DNA of 32,000 bases from Candidatus Heimdallarchaeota archaeon B3_Heim (GTDB lineage Archaea > Asgardarchaeota > Heimdallarchaeia > Hodarchaeales > Hodarchaeaceae), in contig NJBF01000008.1 in assembly GCA_003144275.1 (NCBI GenBank), positions 66,932-98,931 of the forward strand. Direction: 5' to 3'. Positions within the stretch are counted from its first letter, which is position 1. Each line of letters opens with the position of its first letter. A program made the position numbers and the translations under genes. Below are positions 937 to 30,875 of the stretch, piece by piece. The notes beneath the pieces are model-generated. The model was not told where the DNA came from. It worked only from the letters and a program-made list of their open reading frames with translations, and searched no databases.

Positions 937-970
937 GGTTTAGACTAATTATATTTCATAAAATCCTTCA

Positions 971-1484: not shown

Positions 1485-1682
1485 TATTAGTCCTCAAATT
1501 GATAATATATAATGAATCTATACCCATTTTTTGACGAAAATGGTATTTAGGGAGATTTGTTTAGTAATTTTAATATTACGTTACCTCATTTATTAAACTC
1601 ACTATATAATTTCGCAGTTCTTATTTGAAGAGCTGACAAGTCAAACTTCTGATTTGCCGATTTGATATACTATAAAGTAATT

Positions 1683-5478: not shown

Positions 5479-5528
5479 TATCTGATTGATAAAATACTCG
5501 GATATTTAAAATTACCCTAGAACTTTGT

Positions 5529-5548
5529 ATTCATGTAGGACCATGAAT
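5529..5548. promoter_or_regulatory. Inverted repeat ATTCATG-N6-CATGAAT, candidate operator
   Basis: Perfect 7-bp inverted repeat just upstream of the putative TATA box of 4726-5478. Confidence 0.3.
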
Positions 5549-5680
5549 TCGTTGACACATATAATTTACCAGTTACTACAATCCATTCTTCTCTCCATAA
5601 CTGGACACCACATCGAGAGGATACCTACTAAGAGTCGAACAAGGGAAAAAACAGAAATGGAAAAAAATCTATTTCTCAAA

Positions 5681-6289: not shown

Positions 6290-6531
6290 TTTGCGAACCT
6301 TGAGAAGCTACCAGTACAAAACTTCTGTATTCCTCTGCTACTCTATGAAAAATTTCTGAATTCGTTAATTAAATATTTTGATAGTTCACTACCTAAATAA
6401 TATTTCCCATTGAAGTTATCTCTAACACTCAAACTTTCTATAGAATATAGATTTAGACTAGAGAATTACCACTGTAAAATGCTTGAAGTCGGAAGGAATT
6501 AAGAAAACTACTACCTAGAATGTGTTAAACA

Positions 6532-7248: not shown

Positions 7249-7402
7249 TATAATATAAACAGTAATAAAGGTAACAAGTTCGATTTCTATTAAACTCTCA
7301 TTATCTCTTCCGAAAAAGGGGAAAAATTAACCTCTGTGTCTGAAATTGACTTAAATCTCCAAGATTAAACCGAAAATTACTTTAATCTGAGCGTTTTACA
7401 TA

Positions 7403-7409
7403 TTTATAA
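7403..7409 (+). promoter_or_regulatory. TATA box of dinB (leaderless transcript likely)
   Basis: TTTATAA about 23-29 nt upstream of TTG 7432. Confidence 0.45.
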
Positions 7410-7431
7410 GATCTTTCGAAACTCGCTGTGT

Positions 7432-8544: not shown

Positions 8545-8672
8545 CTCAGACAAATACAATGTGTTTAATTGAAATTCAGCATAATCTAGCTCTACTTATT
8601 CAAGAACATTAAAAAAATTACAGCTGAAAGAGAACATAGTACAAATATTATTTTCTATAGAGGTCTCCCAAA

Positions 8673-10235
8673 ATGGTTTATCGTTTATCAAAAATGCGTT
8701 TTAAGACAAAAGTGCTATTTTTCTGTGTGATCTGGATTTTTTCCGCAATGATAGCTACCGTAGGTGCGATGTTTATTACAACGGCAGCAATTCTTCCTAG
8801 TACTCCCTACAATATTGACGAAAGTCCACTGATTAGAGAGATTCGCCTAGATATGGGTAAATGGTATAGCTGGAATTATTTTAATGAAGAAACTGGGGAC
8901 TGGTTCCAAAATGTAACAGTTTCAGAACAGGAAGGAAAATTACTTGTCTATACTTTGGGTGGAACCCGTATTCCTGACTTTAGGCCTTATCGACTCGAGG
9001 AGGTTAGGGCGAATGGATGGGTTACTTTCTTCCCAGAAGCAGAAATCCTTAACTTCTTTTATCATGACCCATCAACAAACAATTTCACAGTTTACGATGT
9101 CCATATTGGTTTTCGTGAAGCTATATGGGTTAATATGGAGACACATGAGTTAGTTCCCCATTATCAACCCCAAAAGTCATTTCCAATATTTCAGCGAGCC
9201 GAAGAAGGAGCCAGCACTGGAGCTGATCGTTCTGGGGAAATCATAGGAAATTATTATGAGGTTAGCAACAGACCAATTCTAGACTGGTTGAAACAGATAG
9301 TTATTGCAATTGGTGAAAATTTCATAAACGAGTTTCTCTTCGTAGGAAGTTTATTACTCATAACGGTAGCAATTGGAGGAGGTGCAAGTATCCTCACTGC
9401 ATTTTTATTGATCATATTCCGTATTGTCAAGTTAATTGGAGGAAGATTTTGGACATATATGGTTCTTAAGATGCTTAATGGCAAGACAGGGAAATTAATT
9501 AATATTATCCCATTTTTTGACTTCGAAGGTGAAACTTATATTGAAGAAAGCTTTGTAAATGTCATTAATCTATCTGGTGTTCGATCTACTCTCGGAGAAT
9601 TATATAAACAAAGAGCTTACGATATTTTATTCTTCCCCACGGCATTAGCAGCCATTTTAACTATATTATTTGTACAAAATTCTCCTTTTGAAGACAAAGT
9701 TACCGCCCTTGTTTGGAGTCCAATCTTATCTCCGTTTGTTCTACTAATTCTTCTCTTCTACATTCCAGTTATCTGGAGTTTTAACGAGGGAGGATTCAAA
9801 CGAATTAAATCAAGTCCACAGGGGGATATTGTTGCGGTAAAACCTCTCGGAAAGATATTAAGAGATGGACTAGGCATTATTATTGGATTTTCTGGTATAA
9901 TATCCCTTGGAGCGCTTGCAGTACAAGTCACAGAAAGTTTTGCTGGACAAGCTACCTCCACAGAGGGAATACAGGTTGCTGGGTTTTCATTAGATCTTTT
10001 TGGAATAGCTCTACTAGTTCTGTGGACAATAGGCCTCTTTTTGATTTTGCTTGCTTCAATACTAGTCGGTGCATCGTTAATAGCAGTATCATACCTGCAA
10101 TCCACACATTTGAATACAATCAAAGAGCTTCGTGAACGATCAGAGAAAGATCAAGTGATAAGTAACTTTGGATCGCTATCAGCCAATTTTAAACCAAAAG
10201 GAATTGAAACCATTTACTCAACGGATGATGAATGA
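8673..10235 (+). CDS. Multi-pass membrane protein with N-terminal extracytoplasmic domain, unknown function
   Basis: N-terminal TM helix, ~180-aa soluble loop, then about 5-6 hydrophobic segments. Confidence 0.8.
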   Translation: MVYRLSKMRFKTKVLFFCVIWIFSAMIATVGAMFITTAAILPSTPYNIDESPLIREIRLDMGKWYSWNYFNEETGDWFQNVTVSEQEGKLLVYTLGGTRIPDFRPYRLEEVRANGWVTFFPEAEILNFFYHDPSTNNFTVYDVHIGFREAIWVNMETHELVPHYQPQKSFPIFQRAEEGASTGADRSGEIIGNYYEVSNRPILDWLKQIVIAIGENFINEFLFVGSLLLITVAIGGGASILTAFLLIIFRIVKLIGGRFWTYMVLKMLNGKTGKLINIIPFFDFEGETYIEESFVNVINLSGVRSTLGELYKQRAYDILFFPTALAAILTILFVQNSPFEDKVTALVWSPILSPFVLLILLFYIPVIWSFNEGGFKRIKSSPQGDIVAVKPLGKILRDGLGIIIGFSGIISLGALAVQVTESFAGQATSTEGIQVAGFSLDLFGIALLVLWTIGLFLILLASILVGASLIAVSYLQSTHLNTIKELRERSEKDQVISNFGSLSANFKPKGIETIYSTDDE

Positions 10236-11347: not shown

Positions 11348-11376
11348 GGAATAGCTCCCTTATTCTATCCAATCCT

Positions 11377-13515
11377 TCAACTTTTTTCACCTGTGGATTC
11401 TGTAATATCGCTAGATTTTTCGGGACTCGGAGTCCTCTCATCTGACTCAATGGGCAAATCTAGCGGATCTTTACTACATTTTCTTCTTTCTAGGCGGATT
11501 TTCAATGAGGTCAGCTCCAGAAATATGACGAGGACTATCATAATGACAATACGAGGCATCGCATAAAGATCACCTTGAATCCCTTGATAGCAGGAACCTA
11601 AGAATAAGCCAAGTATGAGAAGTCGACTGAAATTTCTGAAAAAAATAATTATAATTCCATCAGGTTTCTTTCGAACAAACTGGAACCATTCAATCACGAC
11701 TAAAATGAAAATTTGAGCTGTAAGCGCTCCTAACAAATACCAACTCCAAATAGTAAATCCTCCAATCTGATACAAATCACCACTATTAATAGAAGCAAAA
11801 GAATAAGTTGGAATAGCATATGAACCATCCATACTTGTACCAGTAAGTAATATCAAAAGGAAGAGGAGAACCTCGTACACCGAGCCCAATAATAATACGA
11901 GTGCAATAACAAAGGCTTTTATGAAAGAAAATACGGGTGTGAGAATTATGTACAAAGCTGAAGCTAGGATACTAAGCATTTGATAGGAACCCCTCAAAAT
12001 TTTATGCAGTTTTGAATCACTCACCTCTCTGGATGGATCCATGGAGGATTGAGACCTTTGCCTCTTAGGAACAGTCACAATTTCTGAATTAGAAGGAGAG
12101 TCCGGGATAAGAGTCTCTAGAATTTCGTGACGTGATGAAACCAAAGCAGGATCTTGACCCAAATATTGTAGCCCACTAACAATTGATCTTTTTACAGCTA
12201 AATGCCTTTGAAAACCAACCGTGGTTTCAAAGAACACGTATGTCAGAATAAGGAGGGGAGTAAAGATATACATACTAGAGTAGGAATAATTGTAAGTATA
12301 TGCAGTAACCATCATTAAAGTTCGAATCCCAAGTATTCTACCAACCCAAAAACTCACAGTATTCAATTTATAGTTGGAATGAGAAACCCCAGCTTCTGAG
12401 AAGCTCAAGACGATCATAGCAATTAAAATTGCGCTCGTTATGAACAGATGAATATTTAGTGGACCTATTAATCTTGAGGTGAAAAAAGAATCTTGAAAAA
12501 ATCCACTTTGCCACCCATATCCCCAAGGGAAAAGCAAGCTAAATAGTAAAAAAGGCCCCCCGATGGAAAGTACCAGCTTTTCATATCTGGAATAATATTG
12601 AAAATAATCACGCCAATTATGAAATATTTGTTTGAAGTCTGACAAAATTTTACCAGCATCAACTGAATGGGCAACTCTAATCAGGAATGGAGAAATAGTT
12701 CTTATCCAAAAATCAGTTTTTAATTGTCTTTCCAACAATATTTGTAGAACAATTAACAAGGGGAAAAATAGGGCAATTCTCCAAGGTAGGGGTAACAACG
12801 AGGCTTTAAAAATTAGAACAAGAAATCCTATTCTTGCGATGATAATTAAAAAATCGTCATCCAACTTTCGCAGAAAACCCTTGGATAATAAGCTTTGTTT
12901 CCATCTGTGAATCAGCCATCCTTCGAAGAAAAGGAAATTAAATACCCATAAGGCACCAATGGAGATATAACTATCGGTAAAATATTCTACGACATAAAGA
13001 TAGTAGTGACTTGCACCAATATCTCCAAATGGTCTCGTTGCGACCATTATAATTAGCATTATAAAGGTAAAAGCAGAGATAACCCTATAGATTGCAAAAA
13101 GTTTATATTGTCGTAATTGCTCCAGATATTTACGAGTAGAGGAGGAGAATGTGGGGGAGTCTTTTGATTTAGAGCCACGAAAGGAAAGTGGTGGCTTCTT
13201 TACTGAAGCTTTTTTTGATCCATGTCCTGCCTTGGTCTTATCTAGGTGACTGGTCTGGTCATTTTTTGGTTCTAAATATTGGTCACATATTTCAGAGGGA
13301 GAACCACATTCTTCCATCGCTTCTAATACGTTCGAATGTGAAATGGTTTCCCCTGTGGCAAGCTCATTGCTTCGAATAAACATAAAATCATTGATTTCAT
13401 TTAGTAGTGAGTCTATTTCATTTGGATGCATTTTACAGGTTGATTTCAAGTATTCTTCAACATTATCGATATACGAGCGGATTAACACCTTGGCATCGTT
13501 ATTAATTTTCTTCAT
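11377..13515 (-). CDS. HAAS-domain multi-pass membrane protein
   Basis: N-terminal YIDNVEEYL...EIDSLLNEINDF...VLEAMEECGSPSEICDQY (HAAS/DUF1700 pattern), then two TM clusters; 5 nt downstream of PadR. Confidence 0.85.
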   Translation of the reverse strand: MKKINNDAKVLIRSYIDNVEEYLKSTCKMHPNEIDSLLNEINDFMFIRSNELATGETISHSNVLEAMEECGSPSEICDQYLEPKNDQTSHLDKTKAGHGSKKASVKKPPLSFRGSKSKDSPTFSSSTRKYLEQLRQYKLFAIYRVISAFTFIMLIIMVATRPFGDIGASHYYLYVVEYFTDSYISIGALWVFNFLFFEGWLIHRWKQSLLSKGFLRKLDDDFLIIIARIGFLVLIFKASLLPLPWRIALFFPLLIVLQILLERQLKTDFWIRTISPFLIRVAHSVDAGKILSDFKQIFHNWRDYFQYYSRYEKLVLSIGGPFLLFSLLFPWGYGWQSGFFQDSFFTSRLIGPLNIHLFITSAILIAMIVLSFSEAGVSHSNYKLNTVSFWVGRILGIRTLMMVTAYTYNYSYSSMYIFTPLLILTYVFFETTVGFQRHLAVKRSIVSGLQYLGQDPALVSSRHEILETLIPDSPSNSEIVTVPKRQRSQSSMDPSREVSDSKLHKILRGSYQMLSILASALYIILTPVFSFIKAFVIALVLLLGSVYEVLLFLLILLTGTSMDGSYAIPTYSFASINSGDLYQIGGFTIWSWYLLGALTAQIFILVVIEWFQFVRKKPDGIIIIFFRNFSRLLILGLFLGSCYQGIQGDLYAMPRIVIMIVLVIFLELTSLKIRLERRKCSKDPLDLPIESDERTPSPEKSSDITESTGEKS

Positions 13516-13520
13516 ATAAT

Positions 13521-13937
13521 TTACCTCTGTTCACGCTTAAAGGATTGAATTTCATTATACCAGCCTTGAATAGAATCATGGTAAGTAAAATACGTTTGAA
13601 TCATTGATTCGATCATCAATTCACCAGCAGATGTAATAGTATAAATACGACGGGGCATACCTGGAGATTCTAAATCTTCTGCAATTATTGATGTAATTAA
13701 ACCATCTTTTTCCATTCGATTGAGCATTGGATAAACAGTACCAGCCTTTAACGGAATATTAGATTCCCTAAGCATTTTAATCAACCCATAACCGTGTGCC
13801 TCTTCAGTACGTAATCGGATAAGCAATAAAATCATCAATTTTAGTAATCCACGGCGAAAATCACGTTCCCAATCTCGGATTATTTTGGGAGTATCTCTGG
13901 AATTCTCATCTGTGTTATCGGTATTCTCAGTTGACAG
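13521..13937 (-). CDS. PadR-family transcriptional regulator (N-terminus extends beyond the ORF-track start at 13838)
   Basis: WERDFRRGLLKLMILLLI...HGYGL...GTVYPMLNRMEKDGLI...RRIYTITSAG. Frame is open to an in-frame CTG at 13937; an in-frame TGA lies two codons further upstream. Confidence 0.9.
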   Translation of the reverse strand: MSTENTDNTDENSRDTPKIIRDWERDFRRGLLKLMILLLIRLRTEEAHGYGLIKMLRESNIPLKAGTVYPMLNRMEKDGLITSIIAEDLESPGMPRRIYTITSAGELMIESMIQTYFTYHDSIQGWYNEIQSFKREQR

Positions 13938-14000
13938 CTTTCATGCCCCGAGGACCTTTATTGCTCGAAATATCCTACTGTGAATCAGTTCAAAGAATCA

Positions 14001-15165: not shown

Positions 15166-16854
15166 TTAGAGAAACCTTAGCCTTTTTTGAAGGTCCTCCC
15201 ACGATCCTCCTCCAAATTTAAGCAGGTATTCAGTAAGTTTAACGAGAAGAGGTTCCTCATCCAGAATCCAGAGTAAAAGAGGAGACAGTTTTCCCCATTC
15301 AGATTCGTAATCGATACCAGGAAAAAAGCAATGAATAGTTAGATAGACAGCTGTATTATCAAAAGCCGCTCTAAAAGAAGTTCTTCTACCTGATTGTGGG
15401 GGACGATTCGATAAAATCTGCATGATATGATGGGACAGAGTGCGATCATCAGTTGCGGTCTCAAAGTAAAGGAGAGAAAATTCCTTGGCTAAGGTTTCCC
15501 CTTCCATGGTAGAGACCACAGGTTGGGGTGTACAGACTCCAATTAAGGCAATGGGCCGTTCATTTAAAGGAGTGGATGTTGGAAGAGTCTGAAATTTTTC
15601 TTTTAGGAGATTAAAGGATGGTCGATCACTTTTATCGAAAATAATTAGTACTCCGCCCACCTTTTGTAAAGCAGAATTAAGAGTGTCTCCAGAAAGGGAT
15701 TTCAGACTTATCTGAAACAGGAGACTTACAATAAGATCTTTTATCTTAACTTTTTTTATTTCATTCTCAGAAATCCATGCTTCCCAATCCCGAAGTTTGA
15801 TCCCCCTGCGATAGAGCTCTAGGAGGGGCCCCCAGTTCTCAGGAGTCAGCGGATTTCCTCGGACATATAGCACCTGCAGATGCTTGAGCTGAGTTAAGGT
15901 TGGCGGAAGAGATAACAATTTATTATCTTTCACGCGCAATGCGGACAGGTGGATAAGCGAATGTATCTCCTCTGGGAGCTGAGTCAATTGATTGGCATTC
16001 AGGTTTAAATTCCGAAGATTCGACAGAATTAACACAGGATAGGGGAATACCAAGAAACGATTCTTTTGCAAGTACAAGTTCCGAAGGTGATGAAGGTTTC
16101 TGATTGACTCAGGAAGAATGGTTAGGGAATTACTCGTGATTGAGAGTTTTTGAAGAGTTTGTAATCCTCCGAGGGTCGGGGGAAGCATTTTTAAGTGATT
16201 ATTATCCAACGATAAATTTTGTAAATTGGGAAGAGTTCCGAGGGAGTCAGGAAGCGAGCTCAGCTGGTTATACCGACACCAAAACTCACGGAGCTGTGTC
16301 AATCCCCCTATAGTCTTCGGTAGAGTGGTTAAGTCGTTATGATCTAAATCCAACCGTGTTAATTGAGTCAGATTCCCGAATGAGTCAGGTAAAGATCTTA
16401 ACTGACAACAAGTGAGTTTTAGACTTTTCAGGTGCGCAAGACTCCCGAAAGAGATTGGGAGAGTCTGAAGCTCCTGTTTTTCTATGAATAAGCCAACTAG
16501 ATGTTGGTCTTTGATGTCTAGATGAATCATGCCCGAATTATATGGGGTATCCATCTGTCCTCCCAGGTCCAACAATGCATAAGCTTCGTGTTGTACCAAA
16601 ACTGAGTACAGCCAATAATTTCTCTGATACTTTGCATCCAGTTGCAAACGGATACTGTCCTCTGCGGTTCCAGGATCTACATATCCCACAATCTCAAACC
16701 AGCCCGTAGAGCATAACACTCGAATTAATTCTTCCGCAACTGCAGTTTCGAGTTTAAAAAAGTCAAGAAACTCGTCAAATGTTAGTGATAACGTTCCCCC
16801 GGAATTATGAAATTCCCTCTGGATTTTTTGTAGTAGTTCCTGCCCACTCACCAT
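15166..16854 (-). CDS. LRR protein fused to a degenerate Rab/Roc-like small-GTPase domain
   Basis: About 9-10 23-aa LRRs (LxxLxLxxNxLxxLPxxxxxL); C-terminal GGVLIIFDKSDRPSF..L...IALIG....VVSTMEGETLAKEFSLLYFETA follows the Rab-fold pattern. Confidence 0.85.
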   Translation of the reverse strand: MVSGQELLQKIQREFHNSGGTLSLTFDEFLDFFKLETAVAEELIRVLCSTGWFEIVGYVDPGTAEDSIRLQLDAKYQRNYWLYSVLVQHEAYALLDLGGQMDTPYNSGMIHLDIKDQHLVGLFIEKQELQTLPISFGSLAHLKSLKLTCCQLRSLPDSFGNLTQLTRLDLDHNDLTTLPKTIGGLTQLREFWCRYNQLSSLPDSLGTLPNLQNLSLDNNHLKMLPPTLGGLQTLQKLSITSNSLTILPESIRNLHHLRNLYLQKNRFLVFPYPVLILSNLRNLNLNANQLTQLPEEIHSLIHLSALRVKDNKLLSLPPTLTQLKHLQVLYVRGNPLTPENWGPLLELYRRGIKLRDWEAWISENEIKKVKIKDLIVSLLFQISLKSLSGDTLNSALQKVGGVLIIFDKSDRPSFNLLKEKFQTLPTSTPLNERPIALIGVCTPQPVVSTMEGETLAKEFSLLYFETATDDRTLSHHIMQILSNRPPQSGRRTSFRAAFDNTAVYLTIHCFFPGIDYESEWGKLSPLLLWILDEEPLLVKLTEYLLKFGGGSWEDLQKRLRFL

Positions 16855-18926: not shown

Positions 18927-20417
18927 TTAGGTATCAATGAGTTCAATTTTCTCTCCCACAAGGAACCCCGCGAAGTCTACGTCGCTATCCTCCCAAAAAA
19001 TCTCAGTGTCGAAAGTTTGGATGACTTTTTCCAAATAAAATAGATAATAATACCTGTCATATTTTAAGATCATCCGTTTTTCATGTGGAGAGAGATCCAG
19101 ATATTTATTAATATCTGATGGGCCAATATTAAGAATATCCGACACTATTTTAATCTTGTTTGGAAATTTTGAGAAATGAAAAGCAATATTGTAAATCCTT
19201 GACTTTAGAATCATTTCGTCAGAAATTTCATTACTAAGGGAAGTATCCCTAAGTTTTAACCATTCTTTAAAAACTTCAGAGGGGAAGTACGGATCAAAAT
19301 CCGAATCATATCCTATAAGAATATTTTTGCTTGTTCGGAAATATTTAGTCATATTATGGAATCTCAAATGAGCAATGATCCGCGCAATTTCACTTTTGAG
19401 ATCCTCGAATTTTTGTTCTATAGTCAGCTCGTTTACTTTATTTATATCTGGAAATCGAAATGGGCTAATCACCTTATCATACCTTCTTTCTTTCGTCTTA
19501 CTTTTGAAATGTGAGTGGACTCCCAAATAGATTGTTGCCAGGCTAAGATAGACAAAAGATAAAAAGAACAGCGTACTAGCTTCCACTCCAATATAAAATC
19601 CTAGAAATTCAGACCTGAAGAAAGTTATGGCAAACCAGATCCCAAATACATTTATTATCAATAAAATGAACGCCATTTCAGATACTTGGTTAACTCTCTT
19701 CATTATTCCTTCTTTCTCCTCCATCATGGTAGAAAGCCTTCTTAGCTTTAATTTATTCCAGTGTGTAACTATCAGTGCTAGTTCTTTTGGTATCACATCC
19801 TCAGAAAGACTTTCTGCTTCAATGTTTTCAACTAGCTTCTTAACTTCAACTTCAGTATTATCTTCCCTCTTTATTTTTATCAACGTAAATAGAACTTCGT
19901 ATATTGCAGTAAAACCTAATGTTTTGCTAAGTTTTTCATCTTGATGTAGTTTAATTTTATCTGTAACACTTCCCCGAAAGAATTTTGTTTCATCATTTAC
20001 TCTGTAAAAATATCTACCCCCGTACCAAATTCCTTTTGGACTCAGAGGGATATGGATTAGAATAAATGGGTTTATTATTCTTGGAAGATGAATGACCTCG
20101 ATTTTTAAATTAAAGGGTGTTCCAAATGAGTCTGTGGCAATCTGATTGATCTTCTTGGTCCATTCTTTAATATCAGTGATTCCTTGCCATGGATCCGCAT
20201 TTTTTTCTTCCACACCAAGAACTATCATACCAGAAGCAGAATTTGCCATAGCAGCCATTGTCTTTGCTAAATTTTTTGGTTTTATCCTCCCACTCTTGAA
20301 ATCTAAATAACTAGTTTCCCCTCTCTTCATATAGTGCTCAAGTGCTTCCTGAATCTGTTCGTGTGTTAAAAATCCCAATAACCCTTTTTCTGGATATTCT
20401 CTCTCTCTTTTTGCCAT
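18927..20417 (-). CDS. Schlafen/AlbA_2-domain protein with two TM helices
   Basis: GETSYLDFKS, AKTMAAMANSASGMIVLGVEE, YFYRV; hydrophobic helices at about aa 246-298. Confidence 0.88.
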   Translation of the reverse strand: MAKREREYPEKGLLGFLTHEQIQEALEHYMKRGETSYLDFKSGRIKPKNLAKTMAAMANSASGMIVLGVEEKNADPWQGITDIKEWTKKINQIATDSFGTPFNLKIEVIHLPRIINPFILIHIPLSPKGIWYGGRYFYRVNDETKFFRGSVTDKIKLHQDEKLSKTLGFTAIYEVLFTLIKIKREDNTEVEVKKLVENIEAESLSEDVIPKELALIVTHWNKLKLRRLSTMMEEKEGIMKRVNQVSEMAFILLIINVFGIWFAITFFRSEFLGFYIGVEASTLFFLSFVYLSLATIYLGVHSHFKSKTKERRYDKVISPFRFPDINKVNELTIEQKFEDLKSEIARIIAHLRFHNMTKYFRTSKNILIGYDSDFDPYFPSEVFKEWLKLRDTSLSNEISDEMILKSRIYNIAFHFSKFPNKIKIVSDILNIGPSDINKYLDLSPHEKRMILKYDRYYYLFYLEKVIQTFDTEIFWEDSDVDFAGFLVGEKIELIDT

Positions 20418-21587: not shown

Positions 21588-22070
21588 TTATTGATTAGAA
21601 TTAATCTCCTCAATTGCTTGATTAGGAGTTAAGACCCTAATACTATATCTAGAAGAATTTCCATTTTCATCTGGATTAAGTTTTTCGATTAATCGCATAT
21701 CTGCCGTGATCAATGTAGCTCTAGAGACATAAGCAAGTCTAATAAGATATTTGTCATCTTCAGGTAATTCACTTTCATCTACTAGATGATGTTCTTCGTC
21801 ATTCCAAATCTGAAATTATGCCTTATTCGGGAACAACCTAAAAAGTAAACCAGTTAATATACTCGCATTTGATTTATTTCTTTCCTTTAATATTGAGATA
21901 TGCTTGTAATAATGCTTCAGCAATTCATTGCTTACAAGTATCGAATCACACTGATATCCTATATCAATGAAGATTTTCAAAGCAATCGTGCTATCTTGAT
22001 TTTGATGATCCACTAAATTAGAAGCATGCCTTAAGAGACATTCATCAAGTATGTAGTTTCTCCCTGTCAT
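21588..22070 (-). pseudogene. PIN-domain ribonuclease interrupted by one in-frame TAA (21816-21818)
   Basis: MTGRNYILDE...SNELLKHY...PNKA*FQIW...EDDKYLIRLA...LITADMRL...VLTPNQA; all four PIN acidic positions present across the stop. Confidence 0.82.
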
Positions 22071-23334
22071 TTTCTTTCCCTTCTGGTTTAACACCAACTA
22101 GTACATCAATGTAACGCTTATATTGTTCTATATTTGCTTCAAAAAAATCAGGTAATCCTTCTTTTAATCGTCCATTTTTATCAAATTCTAATTCTTTTCC
22201 ATAACAACCATTTCTGTCGTCCTTAAAGTGATAGAGAGCTAGTTCATGTTTCTTCAATTCTCCTAAACCGATCTTAGTTAATGCATGGTAGACTATGTGT
22301 TCACTATGAGTAGTGATAAGCAATCTTTTATTACAGTCAAGTGCTTCTCTAATGAAAACTTCGATTAGTTTTGATTGAGCACGAGGATGCAAATGTATCT
22401 CTGGTTCTTCTATAATAATTATGCTTTCAGGAGAAGCAAGAGCTAGTTGAGTTAACAAGAAAGCAAGCTGATTTAGCCCAAATCCTTCATTTAAAATTGA
22501 TATATTAGGTATTTGTTCCCTTTTTTTTCTATCAACTTGCTTAACACTCTCTAGCGTAATTTTTTTCCCAGGAAATAATTTATCCTTTAAAGGCTTTTTT
22601 AAAATTTGATTACACCAAGAAGAAACAATTTCTAGAATCTCTGGTTTGTAAGCAAGAGTACTAATCCATTTTGAATTTATTATTTCAAATCTCTCATTAG
22701 AGGGAGTTAAAAGGTTTTCAACTGGGTTATCTTCAAGAAATTCAAAGGGTTTTAAAGTTCCCCTTATGGAAGGAACATACCACAAAGGAAATAGATCATC
22801 TTCAATTATACTAAATGATGATGATAATTCTCTCCTGGTTTGGTTTAATACCCGTCTCTCCTCACCGGATGAACTACTCGAAGTTATGTCAAATGGTTTT
22901 CCGAATTTTTTCGTTGGAGATATACTAATTCTTGTATTTTTACTGTAATGTAGTTGTTCGGGATTTACTTTAGCGTCACTTCCTTTTATGATACCATAAG
23001 GAGGTATCTTCAATTCTGCAAAGTAAGAAATTTTTCCGTTGCTTATTGTGATTTCTTCTTCGTACTGAAGCTTTTTCTTCCTTCCTTTCAATGTGAATTC
23101 AATAGGTATGGTTTGATCTCTGTTAAAAAATACATCTTCCAATTCACCAAATCTAATATTTTCCCCATCAATTACCAAGGTTTCTGATTCTAATGACTGT
23201 TTCAACAATAACATAGCTTGACCAATAGAAGATTTTCCAGACCCATTAGCACCTATGAGGATTGTAATCGGTTTTAATTCAATATTTGCTTCAACAATCC
23301 CTTTAAAATATTTAATACCAAGATATTCCAGCAA
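22045..23334 (-). CDS. ABC-type (AAA_15/AAA_21) ATPase with DUF3696-like C-terminus
   Basis: GANGSGKS, signature-like EGFGLNQL, IIIIEEPEIHLHP, LITTHSE, C-terminal ELEFDKNGRL..GLPDFFE; SD AGGAG. Confidence 0.92.
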   Translation of the reverse strand: MLEYLGIKYFKGIVEANIELKPITILIGANGSGKSSIGQAMLLLKQSLESETLVIDGENIRFGELEDVFFNRDQTIPIEFTLKGRKKKLQYEEEITISNGKISYFAELKIPPYGIIKGSDAKVNPEQLHYSKNTRISISPTKKFGKPFDITSSSSSGEERRVLNQTRRELSSSFSIIEDDLFPLWYVPSIRGTLKPFEFLEDNPVENLLTPSNERFEIINSKWISTLAYKPEILEIVSSWCNQILKKPLKDKLFPGKKITLESVKQVDRKKREQIPNISILNEGFGLNQLAFLLTQLALASPESIIIIEEPEIHLHPRAQSKLIEVFIREALDCNKRLLITTHSEHIVYHALTKIGLGELKKHELALYHFKDDRNGCYGKELEFDKNGRLKEGLPDFFEANIEQYKRYIDVLVGVKPEGKENDREKLHT

Positions 23335-26326: not shown

Positions 26327-26578
26327 ATGAGTTCCGGAGAGGAATATCTAAAAAAATTATTAAGGAGTCAAGAACTCCCTAGAGGATTGATTAAAATACT
26401 TCAAGACACTCGTGATTATTTTGAGAGAATTATTGGCGAAGGAATAGGGATTCCTAATTTGCGATTTTATTACGCAGGATCGTATAAAAAAGAGACTATG
26501 ATTAAAGAATCGTTTGATTTAGTGATATATTATCCTACTAATACCTGTTTTTTGGTTTCTGACTTGTTTATTCAATAA
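26327..26578 (+). pseudogene. cGAS/DncV-like nucleotidyltransferase (CD-NTase/SMODS), N-terminal remnant
   Basis: Spine-like helix EEYLKKLLRSQEL...DTRDYFERII, then YYAGSYKKETMIKESFDLVIYYP (GSYxKxTxI); second Asp of D-h-D missing; ends at 83 aa. Confidence 0.7.
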
Positions 26579-26598
26579 AAAGAATGTGAGGGTTCACC

Positions 26599-26775
26599 TT
26601 GGAATTTGACAAAGATCTATTACCTGAAAGTTTGTTTGAGAAAGCTTTAAATCAATTAGATGATAAAATATCAAAGAATGAGATTATAGAATTGGTAGAT
26701 TTCTTTAACAAGGTTTATTATAAAGATGTGGATATAAAAAATGAATTAAAAACGTTTTTGGATAGATTCGTATGA
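26599..26775 (+). CDS. 58-aa helical ORF (below ORF-track cutoff), coupled to the SMC gene
   Basis: SD GAGGG, TTG start, MEFDKDLLPESLFEKALNQLDDKISKNEIIELVDFFNKVYYKDVDIKNELKTFLDRFV; ATGA overlap with 26772. Confidence 0.6.
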   Translation: MEFDKDLLPESLFEKALNQLDDKISKNEIIELVDFFNKVYYKDVDIKNELKTFLDRFV

Positions 26776-29288
26776 TTACAAAACTTGTTCTGAAAAATTG
26801 GATGAGTCATTTAGACACCGAATTGAAATTCTCTCCAGGTTTGAATCTCATCTTTGGTGAGAACGGTGTTGGTAAAACTGCTGTGATTCATGCAATTGAT
26901 TTTGCTTTGTCTGGTTTCTCTCCAATCAAAGGAGTTAGCTTGAAGAATCTTGTTAAAATAGGCTCTGATGAAACTGTTGTAAAATTAGATTTTTTCACGT
27001 CGGGAAAACAACAACTTTTCAGAGTTAAAAGAAAAATCTATCGTGACCCAGATCGATCTCAAGATGCCTTCCTCTTCGATTTAAACTATCCAGATCGTCC
27101 TCTAGCAACAGGACGTGATGATGTTAATATGGAAATTAATGTTTTGTTAGGATTACAATCCGATTTATCTAAAGATTTAATTTTCTTTAAAGAAGGTGTG
27201 GTTGGTCTTTACCTGGTAAACACACCAAAAGAAAGAGAAAAACAATTTTATGACCTTTTAAATCTAGAAAAAATAGAGCAATTTAGGAAGATTGTTGTTT
27301 CTTCCACAAATGATGAAAGGGGAGAAAAAAATCGAATAGTTATTCGAATCAAAGAAATTGATGATCGTTTATTAAAGCTCGAAGTAAAAAATCTAGATTT
27401 ATTATCTGAAAGGTTATTGGAGATAGAAAATAAGATAGATTCACTGAAAATTAGCAAAGATGAATTATGGACATCAGATAGCGTTGAAATAAATGAATTT
27501 ACAAGGAAAAAAGAAATAGTACAGAATGAGATTGATAAATTAAAAGAATCTTTATTTAGAAAAGAGAGATCAAAAAAGTCACTTCTTTTGAATTATCGCT
27601 CTCTAAACGAAATGGAGACATTTGTAAAGACTCTTCCTGAGTTAAATACTTCTCTGAATGAATGTCAAGACAAAATAGACAAATATTATGATGAAAGGAG
27701 GATTGAACAGGCTAAAATGGATTTAATACGGAGCCAAAGGAATTTATTAGAATCGACTGAGATTCAAAAAGATCTAAGATGTCCCACATGCTGGAAACCT
27801 TTATCTAGAAATGAAATCTCTGATTTATTACTTGAATCAAAAAAAGAAATTAGTAATCTCCACATTTCTGCAAAAAAATTATCTGACAAAATAATACCTT
27901 TATCCTCGGAAATGAAGGAGATAAAAGATGAAATTGGCAGATTATTTGAAGCTAAGAGCAACATTCCACAACTTTCTATGTTGAAAGAAGAGATAGAAGT
28001 TACTCAAACACGTTTCAATGAGAAGACGGAAGAACTAAGAATTTTAAATGAAAAAATTACCTCAATATCAGATTTCGATAGATCAAAAAGAATAATTGAT
28101 ATTGATAATGAAATTAAATCCCTTTCAATTGAAAAAAGTAAGATTGAGAAAGAATTAAACGTTTTTGAACAGAAAGATGACGAAATGAAGTATTTAGAGA
28201 AATCGAGAAAGGGCTTACTAGACAAATTGGCCAGATGCGAGAAAAAATTAAGAATTCAATATTTTCTTCAAAAGGGGCTTGAATCAATTATTGGTAATTT
28301 TACAAGGAATCTTTTCAAACAGCTTATAGAGAATATACAACCAAGGTTAAGAGATCTTGTGGAGATTGAATTTGATGGTATATCAATAGATCCAAAAGAT
28401 AACATTCTAGTGCTTTATCGCGACCAAGAGAGATTAGATTTTCGACACTTAAGTAGTGGTCAGAAATTGCTAGTGTATCTTGCTTTTCGGCTTGCACTTA
28501 TCGAGATCTTCGGTAGTGTAGACTTCTCAATTGTTGATGAACCCTCTGAGCATTTAGATTCCTATCATTGTAAAACTCTTCGGGACGAGTTCTTCAAACT
28601 TTCACAGTCCGATTTCATACCTTTTAGACAAGCTGTAATTGCTGCGAATGATTCTAGATTTTCTGGACCATTAGGAGAGGATATTGATTATCCCTGGCAA
28701 GTTGTTTATCAATTTAAACTTGATAATGGCAATACTAAAACTAAATCAATTCATAAGAAAAAGAAATTAAAAACAAGAGATGAACTAATACGAGATATAA
28801 CAACGCTTACACTTGACGTTAAAGGAATACCTGAATATATTAAAAATCAAGTTAAGACTAACATTGCAGAAGGGAAAACTCCTAGTTTAAAATTTTTATC
28901 TGGTTCAGTATTAGAGATCATGTTTCAAAGATTATTGGTAGAAAATAATATTGAGTTTAAAGAAATAAGGGAATTCGGTCCATTTTCTTGTGATTTTATT
29001 ATAAATATTGAAAATCAACTTTTTGGAGTCATTATTCAGGGTTCTTCTGAAGATGTAAATGAATTGGAAATGAATTTGGATGAAATTCTCCAAATACTTG
29101 AAAATGCTAAGAGTTTTGGATTAGAAGGAGTATTATTTGTAGTTTATGTTCATACAGAAGGATTATGGAAATTCTCTCAATTAAAAAGTACTGATTTATC
29201 AAAATTAAAGGATTCGAGAGAACAAATTGGGTTAAAAAGCATGAATGAGATATTTAGAATTAATAAGAATGCAGCTACTAGTACTTAA
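26772..29288 (+). CDS. Rad50/SbcC-like SMC ATPase with C-terminal restriction-endonuclease-like domain
   Basis: GENGVGKT, FFKEG (Q-loop region), zinc hook CPTC (aa 337-340), LSSGQ (aa 560), FSIVDEPSEHLD (about aa 585-596), plus a ~170-aa tail GSVLEIMFQRLL..NI.F....CDFII. Confidence 0.9.
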   Translation: MITKLVLKNWMSHLDTELKFSPGLNLIFGENGVGKTAVIHAIDFALSGFSPIKGVSLKNLVKIGSDETVVKLDFFTSGKQQLFRVKRKIYRDPDRSQDAFLFDLNYPDRPLATGRDDVNMEINVLLGLQSDLSKDLIFFKEGVVGLYLVNTPKEREKQFYDLLNLEKIEQFRKIVVSSTNDERGEKNRIVIRIKEIDDRLLKLEVKNLDLLSERLLEIENKIDSLKISKDELWTSDSVEINEFTRKKEIVQNEIDKLKESLFRKERSKKSLLLNYRSLNEMETFVKTLPELNTSLNECQDKIDKYYDERRIEQAKMDLIRSQRNLLESTEIQKDLRCPTCWKPLSRNEISDLLLESKKEISNLHISAKKLSDKIIPLSSEMKEIKDEIGRLFEAKSNIPQLSMLKEEIEVTQTRFNEKTEELRILNEKITSISDFDRSKRIIDIDNEIKSLSIEKSKIEKELNVFEQKDDEMKYLEKSRKGLLDKLARCEKKLRIQYFLQKGLESIIGNFTRNLFKQLIENIQPRLRDLVEIEFDGISIDPKDNILVLYRDQERLDFRHLSSGQKLLVYLAFRLALIEIFGSVDFSIVDEPSEHLDSYHCKTLRDEFFKLSQSDFIPFRQAVIAANDSRFSGPLGEDIDYPWQVVYQFKLDNGNTKTKSIHKKKKLKTRDELIRDITTLTLDVKGIPEYIKNQVKTNIAEGKTPSLKFLSGSVLEIMFQRLLVENNIEFKEIREFGPFSCDFIINIENQLFGVIIQGSSEDVNELEMNLDEILQILENAKSFGLEGVLFVVYVHTEGLWKFSQLKSTDLSKLKDSREQIGLKSMNEIFRINKNAATST

Positions 29289-29297
29289 GGTGATTTT

Positions 29298-30875
29298 TTG
29301 AACTATCAGAAAGTCCTTGATCAAATCAAAGGATTATCAATAGTTTTAGATGAAAATGCTCTCTTTTTCCTACTGAAGGGTAAAATATTATCAGTACTCT
29401 GGAATAAGTTTGATGATCTAGGTATAAAGTTAAAGATGACAAAAAATAGTCTTGAAAGAATTAACTTATTAGAGGGACGTGATCCTAAATCTGAAGAATC
29501 ATTTATTAATGATGAATTCATGGCAGAGTTTCAAGATCTTAAACAGTACATTAATTTAAATGGCATCCAAACTCCAGAGGTGGAGCTAACAGGTGTGAAT
29601 AGTTGGTTTAATGTTCTAAATATGAATAGTGAGGAGCCAATCCTCTGGGAACCCTTAGCACTAATTTCTAGAATAAATAATGTTGGAGAGAAATTCTTCC
29701 TTGTTAGTGATAATCCATACTTGAATGAAATTCTTGTTCAGGTCAAAATAAAGGAGTTTATTCAAACAGAATTTCTAATGTTTTCTTCTTATGAGTTTGT
29801 ACTTCTATTTTTCACAATTTGTACCTTTTCGCATGAACAATTGATTAAATTTCAATTGATATATTATAAAAACATAATAATAACTACTAATGAAACAGAA
29901 GAGTATAGACGTCGGGAACTTGAAAAATTCATTCAAGAGGAAACTCCTAGAGCTTTGGATAACAAACCTCATTTTCATGATCCAATGTTAAATAATCTAG
30001 AGATCCATGATCTTATAAAAAACTGTAATGAAATTAATTTAGAACGATATAAAATTATTGGTAATTATGTACGATTTGATGAATCAAGCAGGAACAAAAT
30101 CATCGAGTTGGTAGAAAGGGTGGGTCAAAATCTTCAGTCAAATAAGATTAATTATAAAAATTTTATAATATGGGCTCCTCCAGGAACGGGCAAAACCTTT
30201 CTAATAAGAGAAATAGCAAATGAATATTTATCAGGAGAAAATTCATTTGATGAAATAAATCTAAAAGATTTCACTAATGAAGAAGAATTAATAGAAAGGC
30301 TTTCATTAATTATTGAAGAATCAAATCAAGTTCAGAAAATTGTTCTTTTTGATGAGATTGATTCACATCTAGATAGTACCTGGGTATTTGAGGTTATACT
30401 AAACTTTTGTGATAGAGTATGTCAGTCTATTTTTTCTCCTTTGATCTTTTTTGCAGGTAGTTCAAATGGTAATATAGAAAATTTCATTAGATATTCGATA
30501 GCTTCAAGACCGAAAGGTAGCGATGTAACAGATAGAGTTTTCACTGAAAATCGATTTTCTATTCCTGAATTTACAAATGAGGATCGTTTTGCACTATTTG
30601 TTTCTAAAATTCTTAAGAATAATGAATCGAGATTAAGACCTATAAGATATATCGAAAAAGCTGTCTTGATATGTCTTTTACGTGATCCAAAATACTTTAC
30701 TGCAAGACAATTAACAGAATGCATAAATAGATGTTTAGATTATATAGGAGAATATGATCTAAGATTAACGTTCGAAAAACATATACTTACCTTAGGTTAT
30801 CCATCATTTAGGGTTTTTTTTTACGAATACCATAATGATGATGAAATTTTCGGAAAATTTATCGAAATTAGATAG
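29298..30875 (+). CDS. PIN-like domain fused to an AAA+ ATPase
   Basis: N-terminal SIVLDENAL...FLVSDNPYL (PIN-like); C-terminal IIWAPPGTGKT, VLFDEIDS, KGSDVTDRV, TARQL; SD GGTGA, 9 nt after the SMC stop. Confidence 0.75.
   Translation: MNYQKVLDQIKGLSIVLDENALFFLLKGKILSVLWNKFDDLGIKLKMTKNSLERINLLEGRDPKSEESFINDEFMAEFQDLKQYINLNGIQTPEVELTGVNSWFNVLNMNSEEPILWEPLALISRINNVGEKFFLVSDNPYLNEILVQVKIKEFIQTEFLMFSSYEFVLLFFTICTFSHEQLIKFQLIYYKNIIITTNETEEYRRRELEKFIQEETPRALDNKPHFHDPMLNNLEIHDLIKNCNEINLERYKIIGNYVRFDESSRNKIIELVERVGQNLQSNKINYKNFIIWAPPGTGKTFLIREIANEYLSGENSFDEINLKDFTNEEELIERLSLIIEESNQVQKIVLFDEIDSHLDSTWVFEVILNFCDRVCQSIFSPLIFFAGSSNGNIENFIRYSIASRPKGSDVTDRVFTENRFSIPEFTNEDRFALFVSKILKNNESRLRPIRYIEKAVLICLLRDPKYFTARQLTECINRCLDYIGEYDLRLTFEKHILTLGYPSFRVFFYEYHNDDEIFGKFIEIR

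What the first reader, a model, noticed from the sequence alone, without database searches (positions are those of the whole stretch)
26327..30875. Candidate undescribed defence operon: CD-NTase remnant, small ORF, Rad50-nuclease fusion, PIN-AAA+
Seen: four co-oriented, tightly coupled genes (20-nt gap, ATGA overlap, 9-nt gap) in a low-GC block. Established: CD-NTases are CBASS signal synthases, and SMC-like ATPases act as sensors in Lamassu and Wadjet. Inference: an SMC sensor carrying its own nuclease-like domain, paired with a PIN-RNase AAA+ effector and once linked to CBASS. I do not recognise this combination.
Basis: partly seen in the sequence, partly recalled or inferred. Interest (0 to 1): 0.78.

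Follow-up and report, generated by a model that had tools for sequence, protein, structure and literature searches.

The report
Orphan Rad50-like plus PIN-AAA+ gene cassette
A strain-specific, low-GC stretch of an archaeal genome carries a broken CBASS cyclase followed by an intact cassette (small protein, extra Rad50-like ATPase with a dead resolvase-like tail, PIN-like AAA+ ATPase) that looks like a defence module, but it occurs only once in the public data, so its function cannot be confirmed by comparison.

Summary
Four co-oriented ORFs lie at the stated coordinates with a 20-nt gap, an ATGA overlap and a 9-nt gap. Their GC content (30.1%) is in the lowest 0.2% of the genome.

Most domain calls hold:
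- ORF1 is the N-terminal 83 aa of a 260-289 aa CD-NTase, with its DxD motif collapsed.
- ORF3 is a Rad50/SbcC-type ATPase with a CPTC zinc hook. Its Q-loop (Q to E) and H-loop (H to N) are altered. Its C-terminal tail has an Hjc-like fold but lacks the catalytic Glu and Lys.
- ORF4 is a probable PIN-like domain fused to an AAA+ module.

ORF3 is not the host's repair Rad50, because a NurA-HerA-Mre11-Rad50 operon lies on another contig.

The "system" reading is not demonstrated:
- The tail has no homologue among 1.84 billion representative proteins.
- ORF4 has one close relative.
- 55 loci with the same AAA+ module have no P0003-like SMC neighbour and no conserved partner.
- Intact cyclase relatives have no SMC or AAA+ neighbours.
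- The LmuB match is non-specific.
- The cassette lies in a strain-specific region of at least 18 kb that holds other broken genes.

Best reading (about 0.38): a singleton Rad50-based sensor-effector cassette analogous to Lamassu or RloC. First readers of this scan noted the parts separately on this same DNA, not on other DNA.

The parts
26327..26578 (+). P0001: 83-aa N-terminal remnant of a CD-NTase (CBASS-type cyclase). The GS...DxD motif is reduced to GS...D-L-V.
   Evidence: PADLOC Cyclase PDLC00803, E 2.9e-9, model positions 4-74 of 253. Relatives of 260-289 aa at 33-42% identity are full-length cyclases (PDLC00803 E 1e-62; Pfam SMODS and DncV-like NTFase). tblastn shows a 2-aa gap at the DxD motif and no remainder of the gene in any frame.
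26599..26775 (+). P0002: 58-aa acidic protein (14 D/E, 9 K/R) with a TTG start. Its stop overlaps the P0003 start (ATGA). It is a possible small partner of P0003, in the position that LmuC or the SbcD C-terminal domain occupies upstream of LmuB or SbcC.
   Evidence: The ORF and its SD-like GAGG 7 nt upstream. No family or Atlas hit. Complex prediction with P0003 gave weak support: score 0.58 against a best control of 0.01. The position analogy comes from PMC12663957.
26772..29288 (+). P0003: 838-aa paralogue of the Rad50/SbcC family of coiled-coil ABC ATPases with a C-terminal extension.
   Evidence: Pfam SMC_N and AAA_23. NCBIfam Rad50 models at E 1e-26 to 1e-30 but far below their cut-offs. 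The best PDB sequence matches are archaeal Rad50 heads. Motifs read from the alignment.
26772..27296 (+). P0003 N-terminal head lobe (residues ~1-175): Walker A G-E-N-G-V-G-K-T; the Q-loop Gln is replaced by Glu (F-K-E-G).
   Evidence: Alignment with seven Rad50-like proteins, all of which have Gln at this position.
27780..27791 (+). Zinc-hook CPTC (residues 337-340) at the apex of a short coiled coil (~residues 175-520).
   Evidence: The only CxxC in the protein. It aligns with the CPxC of the homologues. Weak Pfam Rad50_zn_hook hit at residues 332-363.
28329..28736 (+). P0003 C-terminal head lobe (residues ~520-655): signature L-S-S-G-Q, Walker B V-D-E, D-loop S-E-H-L-D; the H-loop His is replaced by Asn (I-A-A-N-D).
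   Evidence: Alignment. All seven comparators have T/S-H at the H-loop.
28884..29261 (+). P0003 tail (residues ~705-830): a domain with a PD-(D/E)xK (Hjc-like) fold. The motif reads E715 ... D741 ... Q756-G-S758, so the catalytic Glu and Lys are missing.
   Evidence: Structure search with the ESM Atlas model hits Hjc, RecU, Mrr_cat, PDDEXK_5 and Cas4 families at TM 0.46-0.66. No sequence homologue among 1.84e9 representatives. My AF2 model has an alpha-beta-beta-beta-alpha-beta order of elements but pLDDT 46. The spacing E-26-D-15-QxS compares with E-30-D-15-ExK in the Hjc of related genomes.
29298..30875 (+). P0004: 525-aa protein with a PIN-like N-terminal domain, a helical linker and an AAA+ module.
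29328..30017 (+). P0004 N-terminal domain (residues ~11-240): probably PIN-like. Candidate acidic residues are D18, E118 and D138; E118 and D138 are conserved in the only relative.
   Evidence: Structure search with the ESM Atlas model hits PIN families DUF3368, PIN_halo and PIN_4 at TM by target 0.67-0.74. No Pfam PIN hit. My own model is below pLDDT 50 here.
30030..30872 (+). P0004 AAA+ module (residues ~245-525): Y-x-I-I-G-N-Y-x-R-F-D-E motif, Walker A P-P-G-T-G-K-T, Walker B D-E-I-D, and invariant R404, K406 and R413.
   Evidence: Pfam AAA E 5.8e-10. Invariant columns across 48 family members. Foldseek places it among classical AAA+ proteins such as Orc/Cdc6, Vps4 and spastin.

Best explanation
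P0002, P0003 and P0004 form a horizontally acquired, strain-specific cassette inside a variable region rich in defence genes. They most likely act as a Rad50-based sensor-effector module. This is analogous to Lamassu or RloC, not membership of either family.

Proposed mechanism:
1. P0003 dimerises through its zinc hook and surveys DNA with its ABC heads. The fused Hjc-like tail has lost the catalytic Glu and Lys, so it would bind branched DNA or DNA ends without cutting.
2. Because the Q-loop Gln and H-loop His are replaced, ATP binding would give a long-lived engaged state rather than fast turnover.
3. The 58-aa P0002 is translationally coupled to P0003 and may bind it as a small adaptor.
4. 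The engaged sensor would recruit or release the AAA+ oligomer P0004. Its PIN-like domain would then cleave RNA or DNA and stop growth or invader replication.

The upstream CD-NTase fragment is debris from an unrelated, decayed CBASS.

Shown: gene order and coupling, domain identities, motif states, accessory status, and a separate housekeeping Rad50 operon. Inferred: all binding, sensing and cleavage steps, and the defence role itself.
For: The genes are tightly coupled and co-oriented.

P0003 has the complete Rad50 layout: Walker A, CPTC hook, signature motif, Walker B and D-loop. It is a second copy, because the host has a NurA-HerA-Mre11-Rad50 operon on contig C97.

The tail has a PD-(D/E)xK fold according to the ESM Atlas structure search.

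P0004 has an intact AAA+ core and a PIN-like N-terminus by Atlas structure. In its AAA+ family the N-terminus is a swappable module: alpha/beta-hydrolase in 25 of 48 members and TPR in 10 of 48. Such swapping is typical of effector-ATPase fusions (my knowledge).

Context supports an accessory, defence-rich setting. GC is at the 0.17th percentile. P0004 and P0001 were not found in the 20-21 congeneric genomes searched. Synteny with the closest relative ends at window position ~13,985. Neighbours include an NsnB-like ATPase (E 1.4e-49), a NERD-like protein, a Schlafen/AlbA_2 protein and the cyclase remnant.

P0002-P0003 complex prediction gave weak support. The score was 0.58 and the best control 0.01. 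That mark was reached by 58 of 80 solved complexes and 2 of 110 mismatched pairs. At 0.60 or under, however, it was reached by only 7 of those 80 and by both mismatches that passed. The runs agree in at least 84% of contacts, and the partner's pLDDT is at least 76.

Precedent: Lamassu arose from SbcCD, and its small LmuC gene lies just before LmuB (PMC12663957).
Against: There is only one instance. The tail has no homologue among 1.84e9 representatives. The whole P0003 has nothing closer than 27% identity, and that relative has no tail and no AAA+ neighbour.

P0004 has a single close relative (43% identity). It starts 34 nt from a contig edge, so its upstream neighbour is unknown.

Fifty-five loci of the same AAA+ family have no P0003-like SMC within 8 kb and no conserved neighbour at all. 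The family therefore usually works alone.

The LmuB model hit is non-specific: a canonical Rad50 scores 114 bits against 107 bits for P0003. No LmuA-like protein is present.

P0003 carries substitutions at three catalytic sites (Q-loop, H-loop and ExK), which is equally compatible with decay.

The PIN and PD-(D/E)xK folds rest on the Atlas's own models. My AF2 models were of low confidence and the hhalign comparison with Hjc was not significant.

The surrounding region contains at least three broken genes.
Confidence: 0.38

Rival explanations
1. Two unrelated units lie side by side. P0002-P0003 (the Rad50-like unit) and P0004 (a self-contained effector-AAA+ protein) were brought together by island packing and do not work together.
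For: Members of the P0004 AAA+ family elsewhere have no conserved neighbour and no P0003-like SMC within 8 kb in 55 loci. The closest SMC relative, P0005, has no AAA+ neighbour. Variable regions pack unrelated genes tightly; the region holds several other defence-like genes.
Against: The gap is only 9 nt, with an SD-like motif directly after the P0003 stop, which suggests co-transcription. The only close relative of P0004 also lies beside a Rad50 gene, though convergent and canonical. That makes two of two for the PIN-AAA+ subfamily.
Confidence: 0.22
2. The genes are decaying cargo. They are intact-looking but functionally dead remnants in a region that is losing its genes, and the cassette no longer does anything.
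For: P0003 has lost the Q-loop Gln, the H-loop His and the ExK Glu and Lys. The adjacent cyclase is truncated. A nearby PIN gene has an in-frame TAA. An Orc1/Cdc6-like frame has three in-frame stops. No relatives exist with which purifying selection could be shown.
Against: Frames of 838 and 525 codons remain open in 30% GC DNA, where stops arise quickly. The Walker A, Walker B, signature, D-loop and zinc-hook motifs and the whole AAA+ core are intact. H-loop and Q-loop variants occur in ABC proteins that act as switches (my knowledge).
Confidence: 0.2
3. The cassette is a recombination, repair or mobile-element maintenance module, not immunity. It would be a compact copy of the archaeal recombination toolkit: a Rad50-like protein, an Hjc-like junction binder and a PIN-ATPase comparable to PINA. 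Its role would be to process replication or recombination intermediates of an integrated element.
For: In archaea the PIN-ATPase PINA binds the resolvase Hjc and drives junction migration (PMC6061704). P0003 joins a Rad50-like ATPase to an Hjc-like fold. The relative P0017 lies next to the Rad50-Mre11-HerA-NurA operon of an Odinarchaeota MAG. The host's genus and order gave no Pfam Hjc match: 0 of 18 and 0 of 2 genomes, against 9 of 10 in other families of the class.
Against: The cassette was not found in any congener searched, so it cannot be a core repair function. The Hjc-like site lacks catalytic residues. P0004's ATPase is a classical AAA+, not the PINA type, and it has no KH domain. No integrase or replication gene of an element is visible in the window.
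Confidence: 0.15

Closest known systems
Lamassu (LmuA-LmuC-LmuB; DdmABC), especially 'long' Lamassu with SbcC-like, CxxC-bearing LmuB
   Same: Both have a Rad50/SbcC-derived coiled-coil ATPase with a zinc hook as the core, a small gene immediately upstream of it, an associated nuclease-type effector and a defence-island setting (PMC12663957).
   Different: There is no LmuA (no hit to LmuA models). The effector candidate is a PIN-AAA+ protein downstream, not an effector with an LmuA C-terminal domain upstream. A PD-(D/E)xK-fold domain is fused to the SMC itself and looks inactive. The LmuB model hit is no better than that of a canonical Rad50. P0002 has no detectable similarity to LmuC or to Mre11 C-terminal domains.
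Rad50-Mre11 / SbcCD DNA-end processing complex
   Same: The head motifs, CPxC zinc hook and antiparallel coiled coil are shared. The best solved-structure matches are archaeal Rad50 heads (E 4e-18).
   Different: There is no adjacent Mre11/SbcD phosphoesterase, and the host's real operon is on contig C97. Scores are far below the NCBIfam Rad50 cut-offs (103 bits against 1000). The coiled coil is shorter. The Q-loop has Q to E and the H-loop has H to N. P0003 also has an extra C-terminal domain.
RloC (Rad50-like zinc-hook ATPase fused to an anticodon nuclease)
   Same: It shares the design principle: a Rad50-like, zinc-hook coiled-coil ATPase with an effector-type domain fused to its C-terminus in one polypeptide (my knowledge; RloC is cited in PMC12663957).
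   Different: The fused domain here has a PD-(D/E)xK (Hjc-like) fold and is apparently catalytically dead; it is not a PrrC-type tRNase. No AAA_13/RloC-type Pfam match was found at E up to 1. A separate PIN-AAA+ gene follows.
PINA-Hjc of archaeal homologous recombination
   Same: Both pair a PIN-domain ATPase with an Hjc-type PD-(D/E)xK protein (PMC6061704).
   Different: P0004's ATPase is a classical AAA+ (PF00004) without the KH domain. The Hjc-like module is fused to a Rad50-like protein and lacks ExK. The cassette is accessory, not conserved.
CBASS
   Same: ORF1 belongs to a CD-NTase family (PADLOC Cyclase PDLC00803).
   Different: Only 83 of about 260-289 residues remain and the DxD motif is collapsed. 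No effector of a CBASS type was recognised. Intact relatives of the cyclase are not linked to SMC or AAA+ genes.

Membership tests
Lamassu | LmuB-type SMC ATPase specifically related to LmuB | tested here: inconclusive
   PDLC03859 LmuB gives E 3.3e-31 (107 bits) over residues 2-598. The canonical Odinarchaeota Rad50 from a Mre11-HerA-NurA operon scores 114 bits on the same model, and other Rad50-like proteins score 106-138 bits. The hit does not discriminate.
Lamassu | LmuA effector protein with the conserved LmuA C-terminal domain in the operon | tested here: not met
   No LmuA model is among the PADLOC hits of P0001, P0002 or P0004 at E up to 1.
Lamassu | Small LmuC gene directly upstream of LmuB that binds it | tested here: inconclusive
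   P0002 is in that position with an ATGA overlap. It has no sequence similarity to anything. The complex prediction gave only weak support: 0.58 against a best control of 0.01.
Rad50-Mre11 / SbcCD | Rad50 head motifs and CxxC zinc hook | tested here: met
   Walker A, signature motif, Walker B, D-loop and CPTC are present, but the Q-loop has Q to E and the H-loop has H to N.
Rad50-Mre11 / SbcCD | Adjacent Mre11/SbcD phosphoesterase partner, and score above the equivalog cut-off | tested here: not met
   There is no Metallophos gene in the cassette. The genuine NurA-HerA-Mre11-Rad50 operon is on C97. NCBIfam Rad50 scores are 90-103 bits against cut-offs of 700-1087.
CBASS | Intact CD-NTase with the GS...DxD catalytic motif | tested here: not met
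   It is an 83-aa fragment. A 2-residue deletion leaves one Asp, and the rest of the gene is absent.
PD-(D/E)xK nucleases (Hjc-like) | Restriction-endonuclease-like alpha-beta-beta-beta-alpha-beta fold | tested here: inconclusive
   The Atlas model matches Hjc, RecU, Mrr and PDDEXK families at TM 0.46-0.66. My AF2 model has the right order of elements but pLDDT 46, and Foldseek gave nothing significant. hhalign against Hjc was not significant.
PD-(D/E)xK nucleases (Hjc-like) | Catalytic E ... D ... (D/E)xK residues | tested here: not met
   E715 and D741 are present. The (D/E)xK position reads Q756-G757-S758, in the same register and spacing as the ExK of Hjc from related genomes.
PIN-domain nucleases | PIN fold with conserved acidic residues | tested here: inconclusive
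   Atlas structure hits to five PIN families at TM by target 0.67-0.74. Candidate residues are D18, E118 and D138. There is no Pfam PIN hit, and my own model is below pLDDT 50 in this part.
PINA | PIN domain, PINA-type hexameric ATPase and C-terminal KH domain, conserved across Archaea | tested here: not met
   The ATPase is a classical AAA+ (PF00004; Foldseek to Orc/Cdc6, Vps4 and spastin) with no KH hit. It was not found in 40 related genomes.
RloC | AAA_13-type Rad50-like ATPase fused to a PrrC-like anticodon nuclease | tested here: not met
   There is no AAA_13 or related hit among the Pfam matches at E up to 1. The tail resembles PD-(D/E)xK proteins instead.

The most novel reading that the evidence does not exclude
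An archaeal immune system built independently from the archaeal recombination toolkit. A Rad50 paralogue would carry a built-in, catalytically dead Hjc domain as a sensor of branched or broken DNA. A mini-adaptor (P0002) would bind it, and it would signal to a PIN-AAA+ executioner. This would parallel, but not descend from, the bacterial SbcCD-to-Lamassu transition.
Probability: 0.13. Interest if true: 0.75.

Novelty: new variant of a known kind. Interest (0 to 1): 0.42.

Why it matters
If the cassette works, it would be a second, independent case of DNA-repair SMC machinery turned into a sensor-effector module, this time in an archaeon. The junction-resolvase fold would be reused as a non-cutting sensor, and the effector type (PIN-AAA+) is not seen in Lamassu.

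It also draws attention to an uncharacterised AAA+ family with interchangeable N-terminal modules that is spread over several archaeal and bacterial phyla.

The cassette is a singleton with several degenerate catalytic sites, so its practical value is limited until another instance or an experiment exists.

Tried and rejected
- **Metagenome scans.** A scan with the P0004+P0017 alignment found no relative. A scan with the P0003+P0005 alignment found one distant SbcC-like locus of 1088 aa, with an overlapping 397-aa ORF upstream that I did not identify.
- **Viral-contig scans.** They gave only weak matches to the SMC head, or nothing.
- **N-terminus-restricted protein search of P0004.** It found only the protein itself.
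- **Odinarchaeota genome of P0017.** It is not held, so I could not look there for a P0003-like gene.
- **AF2 models.** The P0004 N-terminus (pLDDT below 50) and the P0003 tail (pLDDT 46) were too poor to use as evidence. Foldseek of the tail model against the PDB gave no match at E up to 0.001.
- **Sequence searches of the PDB.** The tail and the P0004 N-terminus gave nothing below E 0.1.
- **hhalign of an Hjc profile against the tail.** Probability was below 1%. I used it only to check the register.
- **P0002 against Mre11 C-termini.** There was no similarity. The Atlas search of P0002 gave no usable hit.
- **Bacterial promoter and terminator scan.** It was at chance level and does not suit an archaeon.
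- **Sequencing runs.** None was listed and no RNA holder was listed, so nothing can be said about expression.
- **Taxon name.** Cluster look-ups returned no names. I describe the genome only as archaeal. Asgard-like traits are suggestive, but this is not established.
- **Rejected: P0003 is LmuB.** The control shows the model does not discriminate.
- **Rejected: P0003 is the housekeeping Rad50.** The real operon is elsewhere.
- **Rejected: the cyclase was functionally linked to the SMC.**
Full report
**1. Observation**

They are separated by a 20-nt gap, a 4-nt ATGA overlap and a 9-nt gap. SD-like motifs precede ORF2 (GAGG) and ORF4 (GGTGA). The block is 30.1% GC. The genome mean is 36.1% with an SD of 1.7% for windows of this size, so the block lies at the 0.17th percentile. 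At this composition about 8% of random codons are stops, so open frames of 838 and 525 codons cannot be chance (my calculation).

**2. ORF1 (P0001) is a CD-NTase remnant**

It hits the PADLOC cyclase model PDLC00803 at model positions 4-74 of 253 (E 2.9e-9). Seven of 301 genomes of the same phylum (counting this genome) match it. In other genomes the matches lie mostly in open frames of about 260-290 aa at 29-42% identity. Two of these match the cyclase model end to end (E 1e-62 and 2e-35) and match Pfam SMODS or DncV-like NTFase. tblastn of those proteins against the window aligns only their first ~70-95 residues. It shows a 2-residue gap exactly at the D-x-D motif, so the window keeps a single Asp. 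Nothing of the remaining ~180 residues is present in any frame. The 16-18 kb around six intact cyclases in relatives contains no homologue of P0002, P0003 or P0004. The remnant is real, but nothing links it functionally to the downstream genes.

**3. ORF3 (P0003) is an extra Rad50-family ATPase**

- *Family.* Pfam SMC_N and AAA_23 match it. NCBIfam Rad50 models match at E 1e-26 to 1e-30 but with 90-103 bits against cut-offs of 700-1087. The best solved-structure relatives are the heads of archaeal Rad50 (E 4e-18).
- *Motifs.* I aligned it with seven Rad50-like proteins, including the host's own Rad50. It has Walker A, a single CPTC zinc hook at residues 337-340, the signature motif, Walker B and the D-loop. 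The Q-loop Gln is Glu and the H-loop His is Asn, whereas all seven comparators keep Gln and His.
- *Not the housekeeping Rad50.* The host carries a canonical NurA-HerA-Mre11-Rad50 operon on contig C97.
- *The LmuB hit.* The PADLOC LmuB hit (107 bits) looked promising, so I ran a control. The canonical Rad50 of an Odinarchaeota Mre11 operon scores 114 bits on the same model, and other Rad50-like proteins score 106-138 bits. The hit says "Rad50-like" and no more.

**4. The P0003 tail**

Residues ~650-838 have no sequence homologue in an exhaustive HMMER search of 1.84 billion representative proteins, and nothing in the PDB by sequence. The ESM Atlas holds a model of the protein. Its structure neighbours over residues ~660-830 are almost all PD-(D/E)xK families: Hjc, RecU, Mrr_cat, PDDEXK_5, Cas4/PDDEXK_1 and DUF4365, at TM 0.46-0.66. 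My single-sequence AF2 model has the matching alpha-beta-beta-beta-alpha-beta order of elements but only pLDDT 46. Its Foldseek hits are not significant, although several weak rows are again resolvases and Cas4-like proteins.

I read the sequence against Hjc proteins from related genomes. The register is E715 (helix 1), D741 (strand 2), then Q756-G757-S758 where Hjc has E-x-K. The Asp-to-motif spacing of 15 residues is the same in both. The hhalign score itself is not significant, so I used it only for the register. The tail therefore probably has a resolvase-like fold and lacks two of the four catalytic residues.

**5. ORF4 (P0004)**

- *AAA+ half.* The C-terminal half is a classical AAA+ domain (PF00004, E 5.8e-10). 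Foldseek of the confident part of my model matches Orc/Cdc6, Vps4 and spastin.
- *Close relatives.* Only one exists among 5.8 billion clusters: P0017 from an Odinarchaeota MAG, 43% identical over residues 116-525.
- *Wider family.* The AAA+ module is more widespread. A scan of species genomes gave 55 loci at 25-32% identity in Thermoplasmata, Nitrososphaerales, Bathyarchaeota, Chloroflexota, Deltaproteobacteria and others. An alignment of 48 members shows invariant Walker A and B motifs and arginines. In this family the N-terminus varies: alpha/beta-hydrolase in 25 of 48 members and TPR in 10 of 48.
- *N-terminus of P0004.* Residues ~11-240 have no Pfam hit. The Atlas model's structural neighbours include five PIN families at TM by target 0.67-0.74. 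D18, E118 and D138 sit where PIN acidic residues are expected, and E118 and D138 are conserved in P0017. My own model is unreliable in this part. I rate the PIN-like assignment as probable, not shown.

**6. Do the genes belong together?**

- None of the 55 AAA+ family loci, nor the locus of the hydrolase-fused relative P0020, has a P0003-like SMC protein within 8 kb.
- Clustering of all neighbours found no partner shared by more than 5 loci.
- The closest SMC relative, P0005 (27% identity, no tail), sits among housekeeping genes.
- The one PIN-AAA+ relative, P0017, begins 34 nt from a contig end, so its upstream neighbour is unknown. Its downstream neighbour is the canonical Rad50-Mre11-HerA-NurA operon, in convergent orientation. 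This is curious but is a single case.
- Scans of metagenome and viral contigs added nothing.

The pair is therefore a singleton. Co-occurrence is not supported for distant relatives and cannot be tested for close ones.

**7. P0002**

P0002 is a 58-aa acidic ORF with an SD-like motif, and its stop overlaps the P0003 start. The Lamassu literature (PMC12663957) reports that long LmuB proteins are close homologues of SbcC and that the proposed ancestor carried a single CxxC motif. It also reports that the small LmuC gene lies just before LmuB and derives from the SbcC-binding C-terminal domain of SbcD. That prompted the idea that P0002 is an equivalent adaptor.

There is no sequence similarity to Mre11 C-termini. 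A complex prediction of P0002 with P0003 gave "weak support". The score was 0.58 and the best control 0.01. That mark was reached by 58 of 80 solved complexes and 2 of 110 mismatched pairs. At 0.60 or under it was reached by only 7 of those 80 and by both mismatches that passed. The runs agree in at least 84% of contacts and the partner's pLDDT is at least 76. This raises the odds that P0002 is a real partner a little. It does not establish it.

**8. Context**

- *Strain-specific region.* Synteny with the closest relative (89% nucleotide identity) stops at window position ~13,985. Nothing from 14-32 kb has a counterpart at that locus in three congeners. The relative carries ordinary metabolic genes there.
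- *Absence in relatives.* P0004 was not found in 21 congeneric and 19 other related genomes. P0001 was not found in 20 congeners.
- *Neighbours.* The region holds an NsnB-like ATPase (E 1.4e-49), a NERD-like protein, a Schlafen/AlbA_2 protein and an LRR-Roc protein.
- *Decay.* It also holds the cyclase fragment, a PIN-like gene with an in-frame TAA and an Orc1/Cdc6-like frame with three in-frame stops.
- *Contig end.* The window ends at the contig end, so the far border is unknown.

**9. Interpretation**

The most likely reading (0.38) is a strain-specific Rad50-based sensor-effector cassette. P0003 would sense DNA ends or structures, with a non-cutting resolvase-like tail and a slow ATPase. 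P0002 would be its small partner, and P0004 a PIN-AAA+ effector. This resembles Lamassu and RloC in logic. It fails the Lamassu membership test because there is no LmuA and no specific LmuB signal.

The rivals are:
- two unrelated neighbours (0.22);
- dead cargo (0.20);
- a recombination or mobile-element maintenance module that echoes Rad50, Hjc and PINA (0.15; PMC6061704).

**10. Verdict**

Novelty is a new variant of a known kind (SMC/Rad50-based sensor-effector modules), known from a single instance. Interest is moderate. First readers of this scan noted the individual parts on this same stretch of DNA, not on other DNA.

Noticed in passing
window 21588-23334 (- strand): An NsnB-like (Menshen-type) AAA_15/AAA_21 ATPase at 22045-23334 (PADLOC NsnB E 1.4e-49) overlaps a PIN-like frame at 21588-22070 that carries one in-frame TAA.
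   Followed up: partly
It lies in a stretch of higher GC (0.46-0.47), just before the low-GC block. I confirmed the stops but did not test the family assignment.
   Followed up: partly
whole genome G000 and relatives: No Pfam Hjc (PF01870) match was found in this genome, in 18 congeners searched or in 2 other genomes of the order. Nine of 10 genomes from other families of the class have one. The lineage may use another junction resolvase.
   Followed up: no
loci L018-L072 (genome contigs): An uncharacterised AAA+ family has a conserved Y-x-I-I-G-N-Y-x-R-F-D-E motif and interchangeable N-termini (alpha/beta-hydrolase in 25 of 48 members, TPR in 10 of 48). It has no conserved gene neighbour. It occurs in Thermoplasmata, Nitrososphaerales, Bathyarchaeota, Chloroflexota and Deltaproteobacteria.
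   Followed up: partly
L001 (Odinarchaeota MAG contig, 1-9285): The only close relative of P0004 (P0017, 413 aa, lacking the first ~110 residues) starts 34 nt from the contig end. It lies about 800 nt from the 3' end of a convergent canonical Rad50-Mre11-HerA-NurA operon.
   Followed up: partly
L105 (G230:C1:2396000-2414000) and L108 (G280:C42): CD-NTase paralogues related to P0001 occur as clustered copies within a few kb: three in one genome, one of them shortened, and two in another.
   Followed up: no
window ~13985: Synteny with the nearest congener (89% nucleotide identity over 11373-13984) ends here. The remaining 18 kb or more of the window has no counterpart at that locus in three relatives.
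   Followed up: yes
window 15166-16854 and 18927-20417 (- strand): An LRR protein with a Ras/Roc-like GTPase domain, and a Schlafen/AlbA_2-domain protein of 496 aa, lie between the syntenic part and the low-GC block.
   Followed up: no
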